From assembly GCA_031835245.2 (NCBI GenBank), contig JAVKOQ020000036.1:62001-126000 (forward strand): a DNA stretch of 64,000 nt, in the 5' to 3' direction. Each line of letters starts with the position of its first letter. Within the stretch, counting starts at the first letter, position 1. Under the pieces are notes generated by a model. It searched no databases and had not been told where the DNA came from. It saw only the letters and a program-made list of their open reading frames with translations. Made by a program: the position numbers and the translations under genes. The stretch is from Balamuthia mandrillaris. Lineage: Eukaryota. This document shows positions 25,415 to 37,093 of the stretch, piece after piece.

Positions 25415-26614
25415 CGATTGAAGAGAATGGAAGAAAAAAGTATAACAAGGATAAAGGAAAAACCTGATATAAAAGTTCTAAGAAGGCAATTAATTGAGGG
25501 TACTCTCTTGCTCGAGCTTCTCGTTCCTCCAATTCAAAACGGATGCCACCCTCTTGTTGCGGGGAGCGGCCGGAAGAAGACGTGGTAACCAGTATTTGGG
25601 ATGCTTCAAGCAAAGGCCATATCAGCATGGCGATTTCTGGAGTTATAGCAAAAGTGGCAATCGTTTCCAAGATTTCGGCTTTAAGTTGCGAAGGAACCGG
25701 ACAACTCAACAACCCAAAGAGAGTTTCCAACGGGTGCCACGAGGGATTCTCACACATTGCTTTCCTGTTATCTGCGCTGTGTCGTAACACCTTTTTTTTA
25801 AAAAAAGTCGGGGAGAAATTGTGAGTTTCAATCGAAAGGGAGGAGTAAAATAATGTAAAGACCTCTTGCATAAGTTTCAAAATGGCGATCAATCCGGCCA
25901 CGTCCTCTGGACGCATTTCCTTGGCAGCAGAGGGTTGAGCTCCTCTGTAATACAAGCCTGGATCTAGCGGCGTCTACGCGCGTTCAAAAACAGTAACGTC
26001 AATTGCTGCTTATTTCTCACAGAAAAACAAAAGGGGAGGGGGACCTCTTGAAAGTCTAAGTAGTAGCGCTCCAAAACTTTGAAAAAGTGATCCCAACTGA
26101 GATGGTTTGCCACAGAATTTTTCAGAAAATGAAAAGCCTATTTTTGTTCGTCAGTAAAACATAGTAAAGAATGAAAACAACAGTGCAAACGAGAATACGA
26201 CGAGCAGGAGAAGAGAAAAAAGTTAATTACGTACATTCACCGCGCATTCGTTGCCCTTAGCTAAAGAAGCCAACATGCTGATATAAGGAACAAAGAAGAG
26301 CTCGTTCATTGACTCACCAGCAAAGCGAAGAAAGCGAAACAGCTGTCTGGCTTGGGGGTGTTGTCCTTGTATGCCCCAAAATTTAAGTGCAAAGTCCTCT
26401 GTTCCCTCCTTTATTTAAAGAGTGTTGGTTAGCATAAAGACGGATGAGGGAAGGCAAACGAGGAATGAGAGAGAGAGAGAGAGAGAATGAGAGAGAGAGA
26501 GAGAGAACGGAAGCGAGGTCCTCACCTTTTCTACAGCAGCGACCAACCGTAAAAGATTACCGAAATGAGGAGGTACGGGTTCTATTTTTGAAAAAGTAAG
26601 TACTATATTCTCAA

Positions 26615-26652
<38 letters not shown>

Positions 26653-26775
26653 CCAGGTCTAGCTCCTACACGGAAATCTCTGTAGGCATTCAGGTTGCGC
26701 AAGGCGTCCTCCTCGTCTATCTTCATTTCTCGTATCTTGAAAAGAGAATAGTTTAGATGAGGAGACGGAGAGAGG

Positions 26776-26807
<32 letters not shown>

Positions 26808-28579
26808 GCGTTCAGAAGTAAAATAGTGATTCCGGTTTGCTGATTATCTTCAGAAGGTTGACCTTCAGAAGAGGGAGCATGTTTCTCATCCTCGCAGCGA
26901 GAGAGAGAGAGAGAGAGAGAAGAGAAGAGAAGAGAAGAGAAGAGAAGAGAAGAGAAGAGAAGAGAAGAGAAGAGAAGAGAAGAGAAGAGAAGAAGAGAAG
27001 AGAAGAGAAGAGAAGAGAAGAGAAGAGAAGAGAAGAGAAGAGAAGAGAAGAGAAGAGAAGAGAAGAGAAGAGAAGAGAAGAGAAGAGAAGAGAAGAGAAG
27101 AGAAGAGAAGAGAAGAGAAGAGAACGATGAAGAGAAGAGAAGAGAAGAGAAGAGAAGAGAAGAGAAGAGAAGAGAAGAGAAGAGAAGAGAAGAGAAGAGA
27201 AGAGAAGAGAAGAGAACGATGAAGAGAAGAGAAGAGAAGAGAAGAGAAGAGAAGAGAAGAGAAGAGAAGAGAAGAGAAGAGAACGATGAAGAGAAGAGAA
27301 CGATGAAGAGAAGAGAACGATGAAGAGAAGAGAACGATGAAGAGAAGAGAAGAGAACGATGAAGAGAAGAGAACGATGAAGAGAAGAGAACGATGAAGAG
27401 AAGAGAAGAGAAAGAGAGAAAGAGAGAAAGAGAGAAAGAGAAAGGGGGATGAGAACCCTAGTGGACATGTTCAAAATAAGGGAAGTAACCAAGTCGTCCA
27501 AAACGCTAACAGCAACATCCTTATTGTCTTCATCCTGTCGGAACGGTTTGCTCTCCACCACAGCAGTCAAGCAGGGGAAAGCGCCCTGTTTAAATAGGGG
27601 CCGTGAGTTTGAGACGTCTTATAAAGTAATAAAGGGTAAAATACCTTCTTCAAGGCCTTGTTGAAAATGAACAGTATGTCCTTTTCTTCGACGCGTTCAC
27701 TGGAAAGACCCGACTATGGTATGGAAAGAGATTGTTTGTAAGGACAAAAACCACAACAGAGGACATTAAAAGAAAAAGTTACCGTGGCTATGAACTGTAA
27801 ATAAAGAGCCCACGCAAACATCACTGGTCCTTGAAAAAACGCTGGTGAAAAAAGAAAAGAAACAAGTTCAGCAAACAGAGGAAAGAAAGAATGGAAGAAA
27901 GGAAGAGAGAACCATTTCGCCACTTAGAAGTCAGTTTGCGAGTAAAATCAGAGATGAATCTTTTGTCGGTAAGAAGAGAAACAGCCGCAGAGGAGCGTGC
28001 AGAAAGAGAGGAGCCAGGAGAACTCGATCCTCCTCCAATTCCATCCTCATTTCGGGAATCCACCAACTCTCCTTGTCTCTCCACATCGAGGAAGCAAAGA
28101 ATGGTGATTAGCAACAGTTGCGTCACATGAAGCAAGTCCATGTCTGTCGGATTCTTTTTCAGTGCTGAACTGCACTTCTCATAAAGATCTATCAAAGCGA
28201 GGGCTTCCTCCGGAGGGATGACTACTTGATAATAAATAGAAAGCAGACAGGAAACGAGCAATACGCGTTCCTCAGCATAAAAGCCAATTCGCCGTTGTCG
28301 TTTTTCTTGTGCTGCGGTTGACGATGGAGCTTGCGCACCTTGAGCAGGAGCAGGCTCGTTTGTCTGCAATAAATATGAACGTGTGTCAGAGAATGAAAGA
28401 GCGACAGCAAAGAGGGCAGTGATACCAAAACGAGGTCAATGAGGCGTTTGGCAAGACCTTCGGCAATGAGCTCGTTGGTAAATTGAATGATCAACGCTCG
28501 TAAACCCTCGGATATGTCTGGATCTCCTCTTCCCTGATAACAACAATGATAGCAGTTTAAGTAAACTAATAGAAAGGAG

Positions 28580-28610
<31 letters not shown>

Positions 28611-29487
28611 GTTCGATAGTTTCCAACAACCACAAAAAGAGGCAGAGGAAATTTGATAGAAACCATCAAAGTGTGTTATTATTAACACATTTTGATTGAT
28701 CGCTTTTGCACAACAAACACGCCCGTGACCTATGGGTTTGTGTAAAATTGTTTTACACCAAGTCAAGGGTTCTAGCGTGTGCTCTTCTAGGGATGGAACT
28801 TGGGATGAATGAGAGCGAAGCGAACGAGAGGTTACCCGCAAGAGATTCAACAAGGAATGCAAAAGATGTTGCCGCTCAGCAAAGTAGATCAGTTCTGCTT
28901 TTGTTAGAACCTCCTCTGCCTCTAGTGCATAACTACCCAACTGTATCATAGAAGAAACACAACATAATATAGTGAGAGAGAGAGAGAGAGAGAGAGAGAA
29001 CAAAGAGCGAAGACAGAGTTGAAGACAAAGAGTGCGTTCAGATAAAAATAGTGATTCCGGTTTGCTTGCTTTCTTCAAAAGAGGCTTCATAGCACTTCAG
29101 AAGAGGGAGCATGTTTCTCATCTTTTGCAGAGAAGCGAAGAGTACGACTACAAACAGAGAACGAAAATGTTTTTTTTAAAAAAAGAGCATTACCTCTTCA
29201 TACGCAGACCGCAACAGCATAACGCTGGATATTTCGTTCAAGTTAAGGTCATCGCTCAACACAAGAGCCTATTTTGAAAACAAGAACATTTGTCAAATGA
29301 ATGAGAGGAAAAGAGAAAGCGAAAAGAATGAGAGAGAGAGTAGGTCTGCAAGATTCAGAAGTAAAATAGTGATTCCGGTTTGCTGAGTATCTTCAAAAGC
29401 AAAAAGACTTGCCTCAGAAGAGGGAGCATGTTTCTCATCACTTTTGCAGAGGGTAGACTAGCGAGAACTCCAAAGGAAAGAGAGGGA

Positions 29488-29534
<47 letters not shown>

Positions 29535-29769
29535 GGGATATACCTGCTGGCTAAACTCTTTTGGCAGCTTCTTGCGAACGTTGTCAATGACCACTTCGCC
29601 GTCCTCCACTTGTTTTTTTTGTGCCGCATTTTTGGGCTTTGGTTTATGTTTTAAAAAGAATTACAAGTTTGATGATAACCACAAAAAAAAAACCAATTCA
29701 TCCGTGAGAAAAGAAAAAAGAAGACGAAAAGGAACAAAGAGAATAGAATAGAATAGAAGGAGAGTGAGT

Positions 29770-30347: not shown

Positions 30348-30479
30348 GGTGTGTGCAAGAGTGCTCTCTCTTGAATCTTACACACGTCTAACTCTACCCT
30401 TTGTCGCTATGGGAAAATTTTTCATAACGCCTTCAATGTAGGTCCAGCTTGCAAAGGGGGCCTTGATCCTTTGCCTTCT

Positions 30480-31527
30480 TTATTGAAGAAGACAAGAAGT
30501 GTCACGTTCAAACGAAGCTTTTGACTTGCCTTGCAAAGCCGCCTTTGCTGCAGCTGTGAACACTTCATCAATATCTATGCCATCCATCGCACTGCATACC
30601 ATGAAGGCTTCTGCGTTGATTCTTGGAGTGTTTTTGTACCTATGTTAGTACCTGAAAAAATAACTATAGAAACGAAAAACAGTTCACACAAATGAAACCT
30701 CTTTGCAACTTCTTCTGCTTGTTTGAGGGAGACAATGTGCTCATGGCCATAGGCCCTGCTGACAGCTGGATCGAAGCGACCACCATCACAGCCATCATTC
30801 TTCAGCCCTACAAGGATTACAGGCACGTCAGGAATATGGTCGCCAATCTCTTGATGCCATTTGGTCACCACGTTCTGTAGAGAACAGGCGTCGGCCATGC
30901 TGAACGCCATTACAATGACATTAGCTCCCAAGTAGGTCAACATTCGAATCCGCGTATATTCCTCTGGTCTAAAGCACAATAAGAAAAATGCAACACAACA
31001 CATCGCAACAGAGATAAAAACAATGGCTCAGCTTACCCAGCAGTATCCCACACGTCCAAATAAAGCCCAGGCGCCAAGCGAAGTTCATAGCTCTCGCATA
31101 TAGTAGGCACGTAGTCCTTTGGGAACTGTTGCATTGCGTAGGTAATGAGGAGAGAGGTCTTTCCAACGCTAGTGTCTCCGACCAGCACTGCTTTAAGCTG
31201 TCCTCTGTGACCGTAGGACAGCCATTCCTCTTCTCTCTTCCTCTGCTCTTGTTCTTTTGCTCTCTTTCTATTGTTATTTGCTTTCGCGTTATAAATGAAG
31301 TATAACAAAACAGAAGGATGAGTCTGTACTTACTGAAGGATGTAGTGTCTCAATTGTTCCTTGTAGCTACGCTTGACTGTTGATGAATAAAAACCACGCG
31401 AGTCCATGTGTTGAACAACATTCTCCCAGAGGTGGTCATCTCTTGTAACCATTTCCCACAGCTGGTCATGCATTGTATTGTCAAAACCTGAGGTCGGTCT
31501 CTCTTTGTCTTGTGATTTCATCTTGCG

Positions 31528-31564
<37 letters not shown>

Positions 31565-33243
31565 AACAATAACAAACCTTGCAAACTTGACTTGCAGTAA
31601 ACAGATCCTTGCCACCGAGGTGAGAAAAAATCTTAAGCAAGATCTCATCTGGCAATCGCTTGCTCCAGGCTTCATCGTGATGCACAGTGGTATTCATCTC
31701 CAACCTCACTCTCCACAATTGTCCCGAACAAGCACCTCCATCTTCTGCCTTCATGCCTCCAAACCAAAGCAACAAGTTATGGCTGTTCGTGAAAGTCATT
31801 GAATGAAAGACTGTGCCTTCTGCCGGTATCTTTTCCTGTGCTGCTTTTCCAACTCTTTTTTTATTCCTCCTTTTTTTCATTTGAAGCTGTTCGCAAACGT
31901 GAAGAACAGGACCCATCCACGTTCCTTCGCGAAAAGTGTATACCCACATGTCTTGAAATACGTTGTCTTTGTCTCGTCCACCACTGATGATCAACACTCT
32001 TTCCTTTTCATCTACCGCTGCAGCATGTCCCCATCTTCCTTCTGGATTAGTTCTCTTTTCTTGTTGTTGGTGAGAAGAAGAAGAAGAAGAAGAAGAAGAA
32101 GAAGAAGAAGAAGAATTCGGTTGGAAGAGACACGTCCAAGTCGCAGTATTGCTGTTCCACTTCCACAAATCAGCCAAGGCTTGTTTGTTGGTGGTTTGGC
32201 CTCCAAAGACATACATGTCTCCTTCAAACACTATTGCTGTGTGATGCATTCTTGCTGTTGGACGATGACAAGAAACACCTTCCTTCTTCTGTTTATGTTG
32301 CTTCTTTGTCTTCTTTTCGGCCTTCTTCTTGTGCTTCACTTCGCTCTTCTTATGCTTTTGCTCCTTCGCATCAACAGAAGAAGCAGTCGAACAGATGTCA
32401 TCAGCCACTTGCTTCTCGGTTCGCCACCTCCACTTTGCGTCGTTCTTCTCAAGAAGCACCAGACAGAACAAGTCATCGCATAAGCGACCATCGTTGTCGA
32501 ACCCACCAAAAACAACCAGTTGAGCTCCCACCACTACTCCGCTATGGCCATATCTTGCACTTGGTTTGCAACCTGTGGTCTCCACTCTTCTCCATTCTCC
32601 TTCTTCTTGCTTCTCTTTGTGCTTCTTCTTGTTCTTCTTCTCTTTCTTCTTTGTGTTGGCGTCAGGACTCGAGTGAGACGACCAACAAAGAATGTCGTTG
32701 TGATGGTTGTGGTCATGCCTGCTCTTTCCGCCAAAGACAAGCATCTTCGTTGTCACTTGCCTCTTGCTTGCTTTGCTTTCCGCTTCGTTTCTTTCTGGCG
32801 GCAAGATCATAGCGCAGTGCCCGGTGCGGTTCAGCCGAAAGGGAGAAGAAGCGAGTCCTGCCTTGTGCCCTGCTTCAACCGCGTTGCCATTGGCGCCATT
32901 GTGCAAAAGTTGCCATGTGTGGTCCTCCAGAGAGAAGCTGAGGAGCTCACCTGCATCATCATACGAACTGGAAATAAGCGCAAGGAAGAAGAACACTACC
33001 GGAAGAAGCAGGAGCAGGAGGAGGGCGAAAGAGAGAAAACATACCAGAAATAGGAGACTGGTGGGTGGTTCCACCACCGAACAGGAGGAGCTCAGCGTTG
33101 TTGTTTGCCACAACAGCAGAGTGACCGAACCTCCCTTCCAGCCCTCGACCTGAGGGCACCACCAGCTGACAGTTTGGTAGCTGCTGCCAGTGGGCCACGA
33201 CTCCCTCTTTGGGGTCTGCTCTCCGGGATCCTCGGCGGAGCAT
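30480..33243 (-). CDS. Kelch-repeat / F-box / Rho-family GTPase fusion protein with CaaX
   Basis: Kelch motifs (GRFGHSAV, ARYGHSGV, ARMHHTA, GRWGHAA, FGG); F-box RLPDEILLKIFSHL...CK|LWEMVTRDDHLW; G1 GDTSVGKT, YVPT, WDTAG, VILVGLKND; C-terminus SCLLQ*. Confidence 0.78.
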
Positions 33244-33446
33244 CGTTACGTACAGCAGCACGGCATCCCGTAGATTTTCACGTCGTCATGAGTGATTCGC
33301 CTTTTAAGGTCAATTCGTGCTGTTTTTGAGCAAAATTGGTGCTGTGCATGTCGATTTGTGCAGCATTTGTGCAACTTTAATGAAGCATCTGTGCAGCAAA
33401 TCGTAGCAAAAAAAAAGTAGCGAGGAGGATCAAAGATTTGAGCACA

Positions 33447-34656
33447 ATGGAAGGCAGCAAGAAGAAAGGTGGCAGCCGAGGAGGAGGAGGTGCAGCTTCC
33501 ATGAGCGCTCCTGGGTCGTCCTCCTCCTCCACTCGCAAATGGGCTTTTAACCTGAACAACAACGACGGAGCAAGTGCTCCTGGCGGTGTGACGCCCCCTT
33601 TGGGCTTTGGCGCTGACACAGATTATACTGGCGTAAGCCTTGAGATCTCTTTTATGATTTGACTTTGTCTCTCTCTCAGTTTCTCTCTACTTTTTTCCTC
33701 ACTCCACTTTTGGTCAAAAATGTAAAAGTCAGGACCAAGCAACAGCGCCAGGAAGAGGTTAGCCACGGACAAGAATGCGTTGCGCGAGCTGAAAAAAAAG
33801 GTATTTGACACACCGAAAGCCTTCTTCTACCTTTCTCTTCTCCTCCTTTTCGTTTCTTTATGTTGTTCCTCTTCTCGTTCGGGCTTCTTGTTCTGTTCTT
33901 CGTGTTCTTCTTTTCTTCACTTGTACTTCTCCTCCTTCTTGTCCTTCTTCCTTGCTTCTTCTTGTCCTTCGCCGTCTCCACTCTGTGCTCTCGTTCTCTC
34001 TGCTTTACACCCTTCTTCCCGTATCTATTCTCTGTTATCTGCTTACCTGCTTGTTTGTTCCTTTGTGATCGATGCACAGAGAGCATGGGAGTTGGGCACC
34101 AGTCCTGCCAAAAGCATATTTATGACCATGTTTATGGTTTGGATGACAGGCAACAGCGTCAACATCTTCAGCATCATGATCGCTCTCTTCACTCTCATCA
34201 ATCCCCTCAAATCCATCTTTCAAACAAGACAAGGTTTCTTTTCTCCTCTCCGCTTCGCTCTTCTATGTTTCTCTACTTCTCTCCTGTTCTCTCGTCCTCT
34301 TATCTTTTTCTTTAACTAAAACGCACATACAGCTTTTAGTCGGTTTTCAGAATTGGGGTCAGACCTCATTCTTCCGCAGTTGGCTTATATTGGGCTGCAT
34401 TTGTTGACCCTCAGCATTGGCGCTTACAAGTGTTACAACCTCGGCGTTTTGCCAACGGAAGCGGATCTCGCGGCTGCCCTCGTTACCAAAGAGGTAAAAC
34501 TTTCTCTTTCTTCTGTTTTCCTTCGTTTTTCTCTGTTTTTCTTCATTTCTCACTTTTGTCTTTGATGTTTCCTGCGGTTGCGAATGTGTTGCCTGCCTGC
34601 AGGCAATGGAAGTATCCGGTGGTGGTCTCGCTTTCTCTTCCTCTCTCCCTCAGTGA
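33447..34656 (+). CDS. EMC4: ER membrane protein complex subunit 4 (TMEM85)
   Basis: PPLGF motif, RAWELGTSPAKSIFMTMFMVWMTGNSVNIFSIM and YKCYNLGVLPTEAD; spliced. Confidence 0.85.

Positions 34657-35053: not shown

Positions 35054-37093
<2,040 letters not shown>

What the first reader, a model, noticed from the sequence alone, without database searches (positions are those of the whole stretch)
30480..33243. Kelch-F-box-Rho GTPase-CaaX fusion with a predicted GTPase-dead switch II
Seen: splices join the domains in frame (CK|LWEMV, CA|A AAG and GG|A CCA). The Rho domain has GDTSVGKT and DTAGPEEY, so Gly12 is Thr and the catalytic Gln61 is Pro. It ends in the prenylation motif CLLQ. Knowledge: G12 and Q61 substitutions impair hydrolysis, and F-box proteins recruit substrates to SCF, normally with the F-box N-terminal to Kelch. 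Inference: a membrane-anchored, constitutively GTP-bound SCF adaptor, analogous to RhoBTB but using Cul1.
Basis: partly seen in the sequence, partly recalled or inferred. Interest (0 to 1): 0.7.

Follow-up and report, generated by a model that had tools for sequence, protein, structure and literature searches.

The report
Amoebal Kelch–F-box–Rho ubiquitin-ligase adaptor
This is a real, spliced amoeba gene that joins a Kelch propeller, an F-box and a Rho GTPase lacking its catalytic glutamine, likely a membrane-anchored adaptor that tags other proteins for destruction; the same layout was already listed in Naegleria, so the news is mainly that it also occurs in a distant amoeba group.

Summary
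Six exons (33243–30480, − strand) give a 780-aa Kelch–F-box–Rho–CaaX protein. Spliced contigs show four of five introns, including the F-box→Rho junction (short overhang) and DTAG|PEEY, so Pro61 is real. The architecture is not new: Herman et al. 2021 list 'Rac; Kelch, F-box' in Naegleria and suggest GTPase-dependent ubiquitination, and this scan noted it on Naegleria DNA before. Added here: 21 members in the same order span Amoebozoa (Balamuthia, Stenamoeba, Pelomyxa) and Heterolobosea. Rearranged relatives (Rho–Kelch–F-box; Rho–BTB–Kelch–BTB) share a Kelch signature. Gln61 is kept in 3 of 34 Kelch-linked Rho domains versus 123 of 133 other Rho domains. The propeller's best solved match is LZTR1, which binds Ras proteins for degradation. 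'GTPase-dead, constitutively active' is overstated: HRAS Q61P hydrolyses about 8-fold slower yet does not transform. Thr12 and Cys37 are peculiar to this copy. Verdict: a new, divergent member of a known, untested kind; likely a farnesylated SCF receptor with a slow, non-signalling GTPase domain.

The parts
33045..33243 (-). Exon 1: start codon (33243) and first Kelch blade
   Evidence: weak Pfam Kelch hit E 3.8e-4; X1 contig covers 33043-33249
32951..33044 (-). Intron 1, 94 nt, GT-AG
   Evidence: 94-nt skip in an X1 contig, 207 nt on the short side
31578..32950 (-). Exon 2: remaining Kelch blades with Lys-rich and poly-Ser loop insertions, then the first two-thirds of the F-box (LPDEILL begins 31655)
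   Evidence: Pfam Kelch E 3.6e-36, F-box-like E 3.1e-9; best PDB sequence match LZTR1 Kelch E 2e-17
31462..31577 (-). Intron 2, 116 nt, holds a GA microsatellite; splits the F-box at CK|LW
   Evidence: X1 record 2 runs from 31578 straight to 31461 (record positions 267 to 268, table 8); paralog P0001 has the same CKLWEMV
31334..31461 (-). Exon 3: end of the F-box and helical linker
31268..31333 (-). Intron 3, 66 nt: the F-box-to-Rho fusion junction; removes the in-frame TAA
   Evidence: 66-nt skip in X1 (24 nt short side) and in 2 raw reads of X5 (21 nt)
31037..31267 (-). Exon 4: linker, P-loop GDTSVGKT (31179-31156; Thr12 codon 31173-31171), switch I with Thr35 kept and Phe37 replaced by Cys, DTAG
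   Evidence: Pfam Ras E 9e-12; no Met in this frame between the upstream stop and the P-loop
30969..31036 (-). Intron 4, 68 nt; the only nearby in-frame acceptor gives DTAG|PEEY
   Evidence: 68-nt skip in X1, 163 nt on the short side; acceptor list
30699..30968 (-). Exon 5: Pro61 (30967-30965), switch II, G4 LKND (30808-30794), divergent Rho insert
   Evidence: Pfam Ras E 3.5e-11
30622..30698 (-). Intron 5, 77 nt with an AAG acceptor (alternative 59 nt with TAG at 30640)
   Evidence: no RNA cover; homolog alignment favours the longer intron; another strain's DNA has indels at 30630 and 30639, which fit intron sequence
30480..30621 (-). Exon 6: G5 CSA (30596-30588), short tail, CaaX CLLQ (30494-30483), stop

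Best explanation
The gene encodes one 780-residue protein, Kelch propeller–F-box–Rho GTPase–CaaX, that likely works as a lipid-anchored substrate receptor of an SCF (Skp1–Cul1) ubiquitin ligase, with a Rho domain predicted to bind GTP but hydrolyse it slowly and not to signal through ordinary Rac effectors. Shown: the splicing, the domain order, intact G1-G5 binding motifs, loss of Gln61, a canonical F-box, and conservation of the layout in two distant amoeba groups. Inferred: farnesylation at CLLQ (X = Gln favours farnesyltransferase; recalled) tethers it to a membrane; the F-box binds Skp1–Cul1; the LZTR1-like propeller picks substrates there, most likely Ras/Rho-family small GTPases; the Pro61 Rho domain acts as a fixed docking or gating module, not a cycling switch. 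This copy is a fast-evolving paralog (Thr12, Cys37, lost Kelch signature) that likely has changed partners.
For: Spliced contigs join Kelch, F-box and the Rho exon and show P61 and T12. 21 non-redundant proteins, this one included, have the order Kelch-F-box-Rho; 15 of 21 carry a Pfam F-box hit and all 21 match a family-built F-box profile; this one has the LPDE core. 17 of 21 end in Cys at -4, 11 of those 17 in Gln. Residue 61: Gln in 3 of 34 and Pro in 16 of 34 Kelch-linked Rho domains, against Gln in 123 of 133 and Pro in 0 of 133 Rho domains without Kelch or F-box, most of them fetched with a Pro61-bearing query. Lys16/Thr17, Thr35, Asp57, Lys116 and Asp118 are kept. The window's own propeller matches LZTR1 Kelch best (E 2e-17, next KLHDC2 1.1e-9); the family model's top four fold hits are LZTR1 Kelch bound to MRAS, RIT1 or KRAS. 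The same Rho+Kelch pair recurs with a BTB (Cul3 adaptor) in place of the F-box, so a cullin adaptor is the constant partner. Against another strain, 15 synonymous and 14 non-synonymous codon changes over 222 and 816 sites (ratio about 0.25), no stop among them, listed indels only in introns.
Against: No member has been assayed in anything I read. LZTR1's lead in the fold search is slim (5e-23 against 2.5e-22 for KLHDC3, a C-degron binder; 18% identity), so the substrate class is a guess. HRAS Q61P is slow but not transforming and NRAS Q61P is not tumorigenic, so 'locked on' cannot be assumed. 3 of 21 members keep Gln61 and 16 keep Gly12. Some F-box proteins bind Skp1 without Cul1 (Roy1, abstract in listing). 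The fusion joint has short overhangs (24 and 21 nt). The 5-model fold of paralog P0002 has pTM 0.56 and low-confidence linkers, so it does not fix how the domains sit.
Confidence: 0.55

Rival explanations
1. The Kelch propeller clamps the protein's own Rho domain (as LZTR1 binds GDP-loaded Ras), Pro61 fixing switch II for that contact, so the protein is an autoinhibited or self-degrading ligase opened by nucleotide exchange, as proposed for RhoBTB.
For: Loss of Gln61 tracks the presence of Kelch across three domain orders, while 19 of 19 Rho-BTB proteins without Kelch keep Gln. Top fold hits are LZTR1-RAS(GDP) complexes. An intramolecular autoinhibition model is described for RhoBTB (passages).
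Against: The full-length model of P0002 does not place the domains confidently (pTM 0.56). Two F-box-Rho proteins without a detected Kelch also have Pro61. Residue 61 varies (P, G, S, R, E) among Kelch-linked domains.
Confidence: 0.2
2. The F-box binds Skp1 without Cul1, and the protein is a non-degradative regulator or sink for GEFs, GAPs or small GTPases at membranes.
For: Yeast Roy1 is a non-SCF F-box protein that binds and inhibits a Rab5-like GTPase (abstract in listing). A slow, effector-poor GTPase domain (Cys37) could trap regulators.
Against: The F-box keeps the LPDE core (its Pro and Glu contact Cul1 in Skp2, recalled). Relatives swap the F-box for a BTB, another cullin adaptor.
Confidence: 0.12
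3. This copy is a decaying duplicate, and T12, C37 and the lost Kelch signature reflect drift, not function.
For: Long branch in the Rho tree (1.4 against median 0.37); only 35% identity to a Rac3 domain against 50% for paralog P0002; low RNA depth; earlier scan notes report decayed copies in Naegleria (unchecked).
Against: Open frame over 780 codons, correct splicing, non-synonymous/synonymous ratio about 0.25 against another strain, indels confined to introns; nucleotide-binding motifs, F-box core and CaaX intact.
Confidence: 0.08
4. Kelch/F-box and Rho are two neighbouring genes, or other splicing restores Gln61.
For: Exon 3 runs into TAA if intron 3 is kept; the bridging overhangs are under 31 nt.
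Against: The spliced joint is seen in two runs; the Rho frame has no Met before the P-loop; the nearby alternative acceptors at intron 4 shift the frame; 20 homologs have the fused order, 11 of them with Pro61.
Confidence: 0.03

Closest known systems
Naegleria 'Rac; Kelch, F-box' multidomain GTPases (Herman et al. 2021, BMC Biol 19:142, PMC8296547, Table S8 and Supplementary Material 4)
   Same: Same three domains; table rows XP_002672610.1, XP_002668324.1, XP_002677266.1 and N. fowleri Rac42; XP_002676274.1 (listed as 'Kelch') is my hit P0242. The paper proposes GTPase-dependent ubiquitination.
   Different: There called novel or lineage-specific in Naegleria; the parts I read mention neither Pro61, nor amoebozoan members, nor the LZTR1-like propeller. 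This copy adds Thr12 and Cys37.
RhoBTB1-3 (Cul3 adaptors with an atypical Rho domain)
   Same: Atypical Rho domain fused to a cullin adaptor; Gly12 replaced (Asn in RhoBTB1/2); RhoBTB3 has a CaaX (passages).
   Different: BTB/Cul3 instead of F-box/Cul1; GTPase at the N-terminus; no Kelch propeller; two-residue deletion in switch II instead of Pro61.
LZTR1 (Kelch-BTB-BACK Cul3 adaptor for RIT1, MRAS, KRAS)
   Same: Best solved match to the propeller by sequence and by fold; targets Ras-family GTPases for ubiquitination (passage).
   Different: No GTPase domain, F-box or CaaX of its own; identity about 18% in the fold alignment; GTPase-contact residues not compared here.
F-box/Kelch proteins (plant FBK, human FBXO42)
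   Same: F-box plus Kelch substrate receptor; FBXO42 is a weak hit, E 7.5e-7.
   Different: F-box lies N-terminal to Kelch there (recalled); no GTPase or prenylation motif.

Membership tests
Kelch-F-box-Rac fusions (Herman et al. 2021) | Kelch, F-box and Rho-family domain in one protein | tested here: met
   Pfam hits, one open frame, spliced joints
Kelch-F-box-Rac fusions (Herman et al. 2021) | Common descent with the Naegleria proteins | tested here: inconclusive
   Same order and shared Pro61; Kelch tree puts amoebozoan and heterolobosean members in separate groups (88 and 92 SH-aLRT); one clade not rejected, p-AU 0.276; Rho tree unresolved
Rho family GTPase | G1-G5 nucleotide-binding motifs, Rho-type sequence, CaaX | tested here: met
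   GxxxxGKT, T35, DxxG, xKxD, CSA, CLLQ; 35-37% to Rac3/Cdc42 domains; family profile hits Rac1 best
Rho family GTPase | Catalytic Gln61 and Gly12 of a cycling switch | tested here: not met
   Pro61 and Thr12, both read in a spliced contig without mismatch
Rho family GTPase | GTP binding and hydrolysis rate | not testable with these tools
   needs biochemistry
SCF F-box substrate receptor | F-box motif above curated cut-off, with LPxE core and closing Trp residues | tested here: met
   PF00646 33.1 bits against cut-off 20.5 on the first two-thirds alone; alignment
SCF F-box substrate receptor | Binding to Skp1 and Cul1 | not tested
RhoBTB | Tandem BTB domains after an N-terminal GTPase | tested here: not met
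   no BTB hit in any exon frame scanned; GTPase is C-terminal
LZTR1 | Kelch followed by BTB-BACK pairs | tested here: not met
   Kelch is followed by F-box and Rho
LZTR1 | Propeller that binds small GTPases | tested here: inconclusive
   best PDB match by sequence and fold, but C-degron binders KLHDC2/3/10 follow closely in the fold search; binding not modelled

The most novel reading that the evidence does not exclude
An ancient, undescribed family of self-contained 'GTPase-gated cullin adaptors': one Rho(Pro61)–LZTR1-like Kelch module, inherited in both Amoebozoa and Heterolobosea and shuffled with either an F-box (Cul1) or BTB domains (Cul3) in three domain orders, that destroys Ras/Rac GTPases at membranes and uses its own built-in GTPase as gate or decoy substrate. 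This would make LZTR1-type proteolysis of small GTPases a deep eukaryotic mechanism that amoebae expanded.
Probability: 0.25. Interest if true: 0.7.

Novelty: new member of a known kind. Interest (0 to 1): 0.38.

Why it matters
GTPase-coupled ubiquitin ligases are known from animals (RhoBTB, LZTR1) and were proposed for Naegleria from domain lists only. The same Kelch–F-box–Rho(Pro61) layout in a second eukaryotic supergroup, plus rearranged versions with BTB domains, suggests it is not a Naegleria oddity and gives a defined set of proteins and residues to test. As a single gene it is an ordinary, divergent paralog of a catalogued, untested family.

Tried and rejected
No whole genome is held for this window, so paralogs could be counted only from protein collections. 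Rho-domain tree (80 rows; quick tree only, careful search unfinished; 12 redundant or partial rows and rows under 120 aa left out): 7 of 72 branches starred, long branches meet; it says only that the window protein groups with the two Balamuthia paralogs (99). Kelch tree (67 rows): all 34 Rho-linked propellers lie on one side of an unstarred 88% branch with 3 others; one origin neither rejected (p-AU 0.478) nor shown; the rows were picked by a family profile, which biases toward grouping. A search limited to the F-box+Rho region returned mostly mis-fused gene models and one new member, in another order. The word-indexed search with the 20-sequence alignment added no new Kelch-F-box-Rho member. 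Alignment A2 mixed two domain orders and was not used. One scan of viral contigs with an F-box-Rho protein found no relative (single query, close relatives only); a recalled giant-virus F-box-Rho gene was not confirmed in print and is not used. Co-folding of the Kelch and Rho domains was not available, so a Kelch-Rho contact stays open. The spliced window protein itself was not folded; paralog P0002 stood in. Raw RNA runs X4 and X6 gave no splice joint; most of their reads came from a low-complexity stretch at 32617-32651. No listed holder was on record as RNA. Aravind 2012 (PMC3417536) passages held nothing on this fusion.

Full report
1. What is in the sequence. The window is eukaryotic and intron-rich. 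On the minus strand six exons (33243-33045, 32950-31578, 31461-31334, 31267-31037, 30968-30699, 30621-30480) give one open frame of 780 residues; an alternative last acceptor gives 786. Pfam finds Kelch repeats, an F-box and a Ras-family domain in that order on the exon frames. The source organism is not given. The nearest proteins are two Balamuthia mandrillaris paralogs (40% and 35% over the Kelch frame), which group with it in both trees (99 and 100), so the source is likely Balamuthia or a close relative.

2. Splicing. Run X1 (contigs, guessed to be RNA) has a 424-nt contig reading 31844-31578, 31461-31334, 31267-31244 without mismatch, and a 352-nt contig reading 31225-31037, 30968-30806 without mismatch. 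Intron 1 is skipped in a third contig. Two raw reads of RNA run X5 show the 66-nt fusion intron. So introns 1-4 are seen, Thr12 and Pro61 are in the transcript, and Kelch, F-box and the Rho exon lie on one spliced molecule. Caveats: the fusion joint has 24 and 21 nt on its short side, under the tool's 31-nt bar; no listed contig spans the gene; intron 5 is uncovered. Other support: the Rho frame has no Met before the P-loop, and the nearby alternative acceptors of intron 4 shift the frame. A DNA contig of another strain (X3) carries 30461-31848 in one piece, so the arrangement is not an assembly join. Of its 52 differences 40 were listed: 10 intronic and 30 in 29 codons, 15 synonymous and 14 non-synonymous over 222 and 816 sites (ratio about 0.25), no stop; 4 of its 6 gaps were listed, all in introns.

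3. The family. Searches and profiles built from alignment A3 gave 21 non-redundant Kelch-F-box-Rho proteins including this one, after dropping 3 cluster-mates; 15 of 21 have a Pfam F-box hit, 6 only the family-built profile. Named members: Balamuthia (2), Stenamoeba, Pelomyxa; Naegleria fowleri, N. gruberi, Willaertia (2), Acrasis; the rest are unnamed. That these fall in Amoebozoa and Heterolobosea is recalled, not looked up. Two rearranged types also appeared: Rho-Kelch-F-box (7; Mastigella, Pelomyxa, Physarum) and Rho-BTB-Kelch(-BTB) (8, plus one with a degenerate Rho; Arcella, Copromyxa). A blade motif GG[KR]xN[GS][YF] is in 24 of 36 Rho-linked propellers and in 2 of 213 other Kelch proteins held, one of the two being the degenerate-Rho protein. 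The window protein keeps only FGGKS of it.

4. The GTPase. Residue 61 is Gln in 3 of 34 and Pro in 16 of 34 Kelch-linked Rho domains (2 without a residue dropped); in Rho domains without Kelch or F-box it is Gln in 123 of 133 and Pro in none (1 dropped), including 19 of 19 Rho-BTB proteins without Kelch; both F-box-Rho proteins without Kelch have Pro. These rows are related, so the counts are not independent events. Gly12 is kept in 16 of 21 and Phe37 in 18 of 21 family members; Thr12 and Cys37 occur only in the window protein. Binding motifs G1-G5 are intact. From passages of a review (PMC6813200): HRAS Q61P hydrolyses at about one-eighth of wild type but does not transform, while G12T transforms fully. 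From passages of bioRxiv 2021.01.15.426808: NRAS Q61P mice formed no melanoma. By analogy the domain is likely slow and GAP-resistant, but Pro61 does not by itself mean 'on', and Cys37 likely weakens canonical effector binding (role of Phe37 recalled). 'Slow, non-signalling' fits better than 'dead and constitutively active'.

5. The propeller and F-box. The window's Kelch frame matches LZTR1 Kelch best among 20 PDB sequences hit (E 2e-17; KLHDC2 1.1e-9). An AlphaFold model of paralog P0002 (mean pLDDT 76.7, pTM 0.56) has LZTR1-RAS(GDP) chains as its first four fold hits, with KLHDC3 fifth at a similar E-value. LZTR1 is a Cul3 adaptor that targets RIT1, MRAS and KRAS (passage of PMC13565119). 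This makes small GTPases the leading guess for substrates, not a result. The F-box has the LPDE core and both closing Trp residues. 17 of 21 members end in Cys at -4; of the other four, three look cut short and one has a cluster-mate ending CLMQ.

6. How it likely works. Shown: one spliced protein with these parts under purifying selection. Inferred: farnesylation anchors it, the F-box brings Skp1-Cul1-Rbx1, the propeller captures membrane substrates, and the Pro61 Rho domain serves as a stable docking or gating surface (0.55). Rivals: the propeller clamps its own Rho domain (0.2), a Skp1-only regulator (0.12), a decaying copy (0.08), separate genes (0.03).

7. What is known. Earlier notes of this scan pointed to Herman et al. 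2021 (PMC8296547). I checked: main-text passages, the Kelch rows of Table S8 and the second half of Additional File 4, the Ras-superfamily text. The table lists N. gruberi Rac genes with 'Kelch, F-box' and N. fowleri Rac42; the text calls such architectures novel in Naegleria and suggests GTPase-dependent ubiquitination. I did not see Figure S7 (file 13), which may show the domain order. RhoBTB features come from passages of PMC4931677; Roy1 from a search listing only. Seven full-text searches listed no paper on this architecture in Amoebozoa or on Pro61, but they also missed Herman et al., whose statement is in supplements, and most subscription journals are not held, so absence from print is weakly shown.

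8. Origin. The Kelch tree separates amoebozoan and heterolobosean members without strong support, and neither one origin of the Kelch-F-box-Rho type (p-AU 0.276) nor of all Rho-linked propellers (p-AU 0.478) is rejected. The Rho tree is unresolved. Same order, same Pro61, same Kelch signature and same CaaX type favour common descent (ancient or by transfer) over repeated fusion, but this is not shown.

9. Verdict. Observation confirmed; interpretation partly supported; new member of a known, untested kind. Interest 0.38. The wider reading, an ancient shuffled Rho-Kelch cullin-adaptor family acting on small GTPases, has probability about 0.25 and would deserve 0.7.

Noticed in passing
proteins P0107, P0111, P0102, P0074, P0009, P0039, P0263, P0266, P0302 (Arcella, Copromyxa, unnamed): Rho-BTB-Kelch-BTB-CaaX proteins: a RhoBTB-like frame with an inserted propeller carrying the family signature; residue 61 is Pro or Arg, not Gln. 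Their propellers form a 99% clade. Not found in the papers searched.
   Followed up: partly
proteins P0168, P0200, P0218, P0252, P0260, P0269, P0270 (Mastigella, Pelomyxa, Physarum, unnamed): Permuted order Rho-Kelch-F-box without CaaX; none keeps Gln61; P0218 and P0269 add a C-terminal Vint/Hint domain.
   Followed up: partly
proteins P0058, P0123, P0129-P0131, P0145, P0156, P0160, P0161, P0163: Rho-BTB-U-box proteins (Pfam PF04564) with canonical Gln61: another GTPase-E3 fusion in amoebae and Anaeramoeba.
   Followed up: no
proteins P0096, P0104, P0113, P0141, P0165: Ubiquitin-like domain (most with PF25106) fused N-terminal to a Rac domain with a CaaX end, one from Physarum.
   Followed up: no
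protein P0015: Kelch-PB1-protein kinase with the same Kelch signature as the Rho-linked family, falling among them in the Kelch tree.
   Followed up: no
window 33243-33449: The gene is head-to-head with an EMC4 gene (+ strand, likely ATG near 33449; Pfam PF06417) across about 200 bp, likely a shared promoter.
   Followed up: partly
window 35054-37093: Long single-frame, GC-rich (61%) DEAD-box helicase ORF with an RGG-rich tail, Ded1/DDX3-like by recall.
   Followed up: partly
window 30622-30651: Intron 5 has a perfect TACTAAC branch motif followed after 3 nt by TAG, yet homologs and strain indels favour the AAG 18 nt further on; a possible two-acceptor site adding or removing six residues.
   Followed up: partly
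window 26000-29660: Many short exons of a large minus-strand gene among long GA and AGAAG microsatellites; two frames tested gave no Pfam or PDB hit.
   Followed up: partly
protein P0001 (Balamuthia), first 90 residues: N-terminal extension that looks ankyrin-like by eye; may be a gene-model fusion.
   Followed up: no
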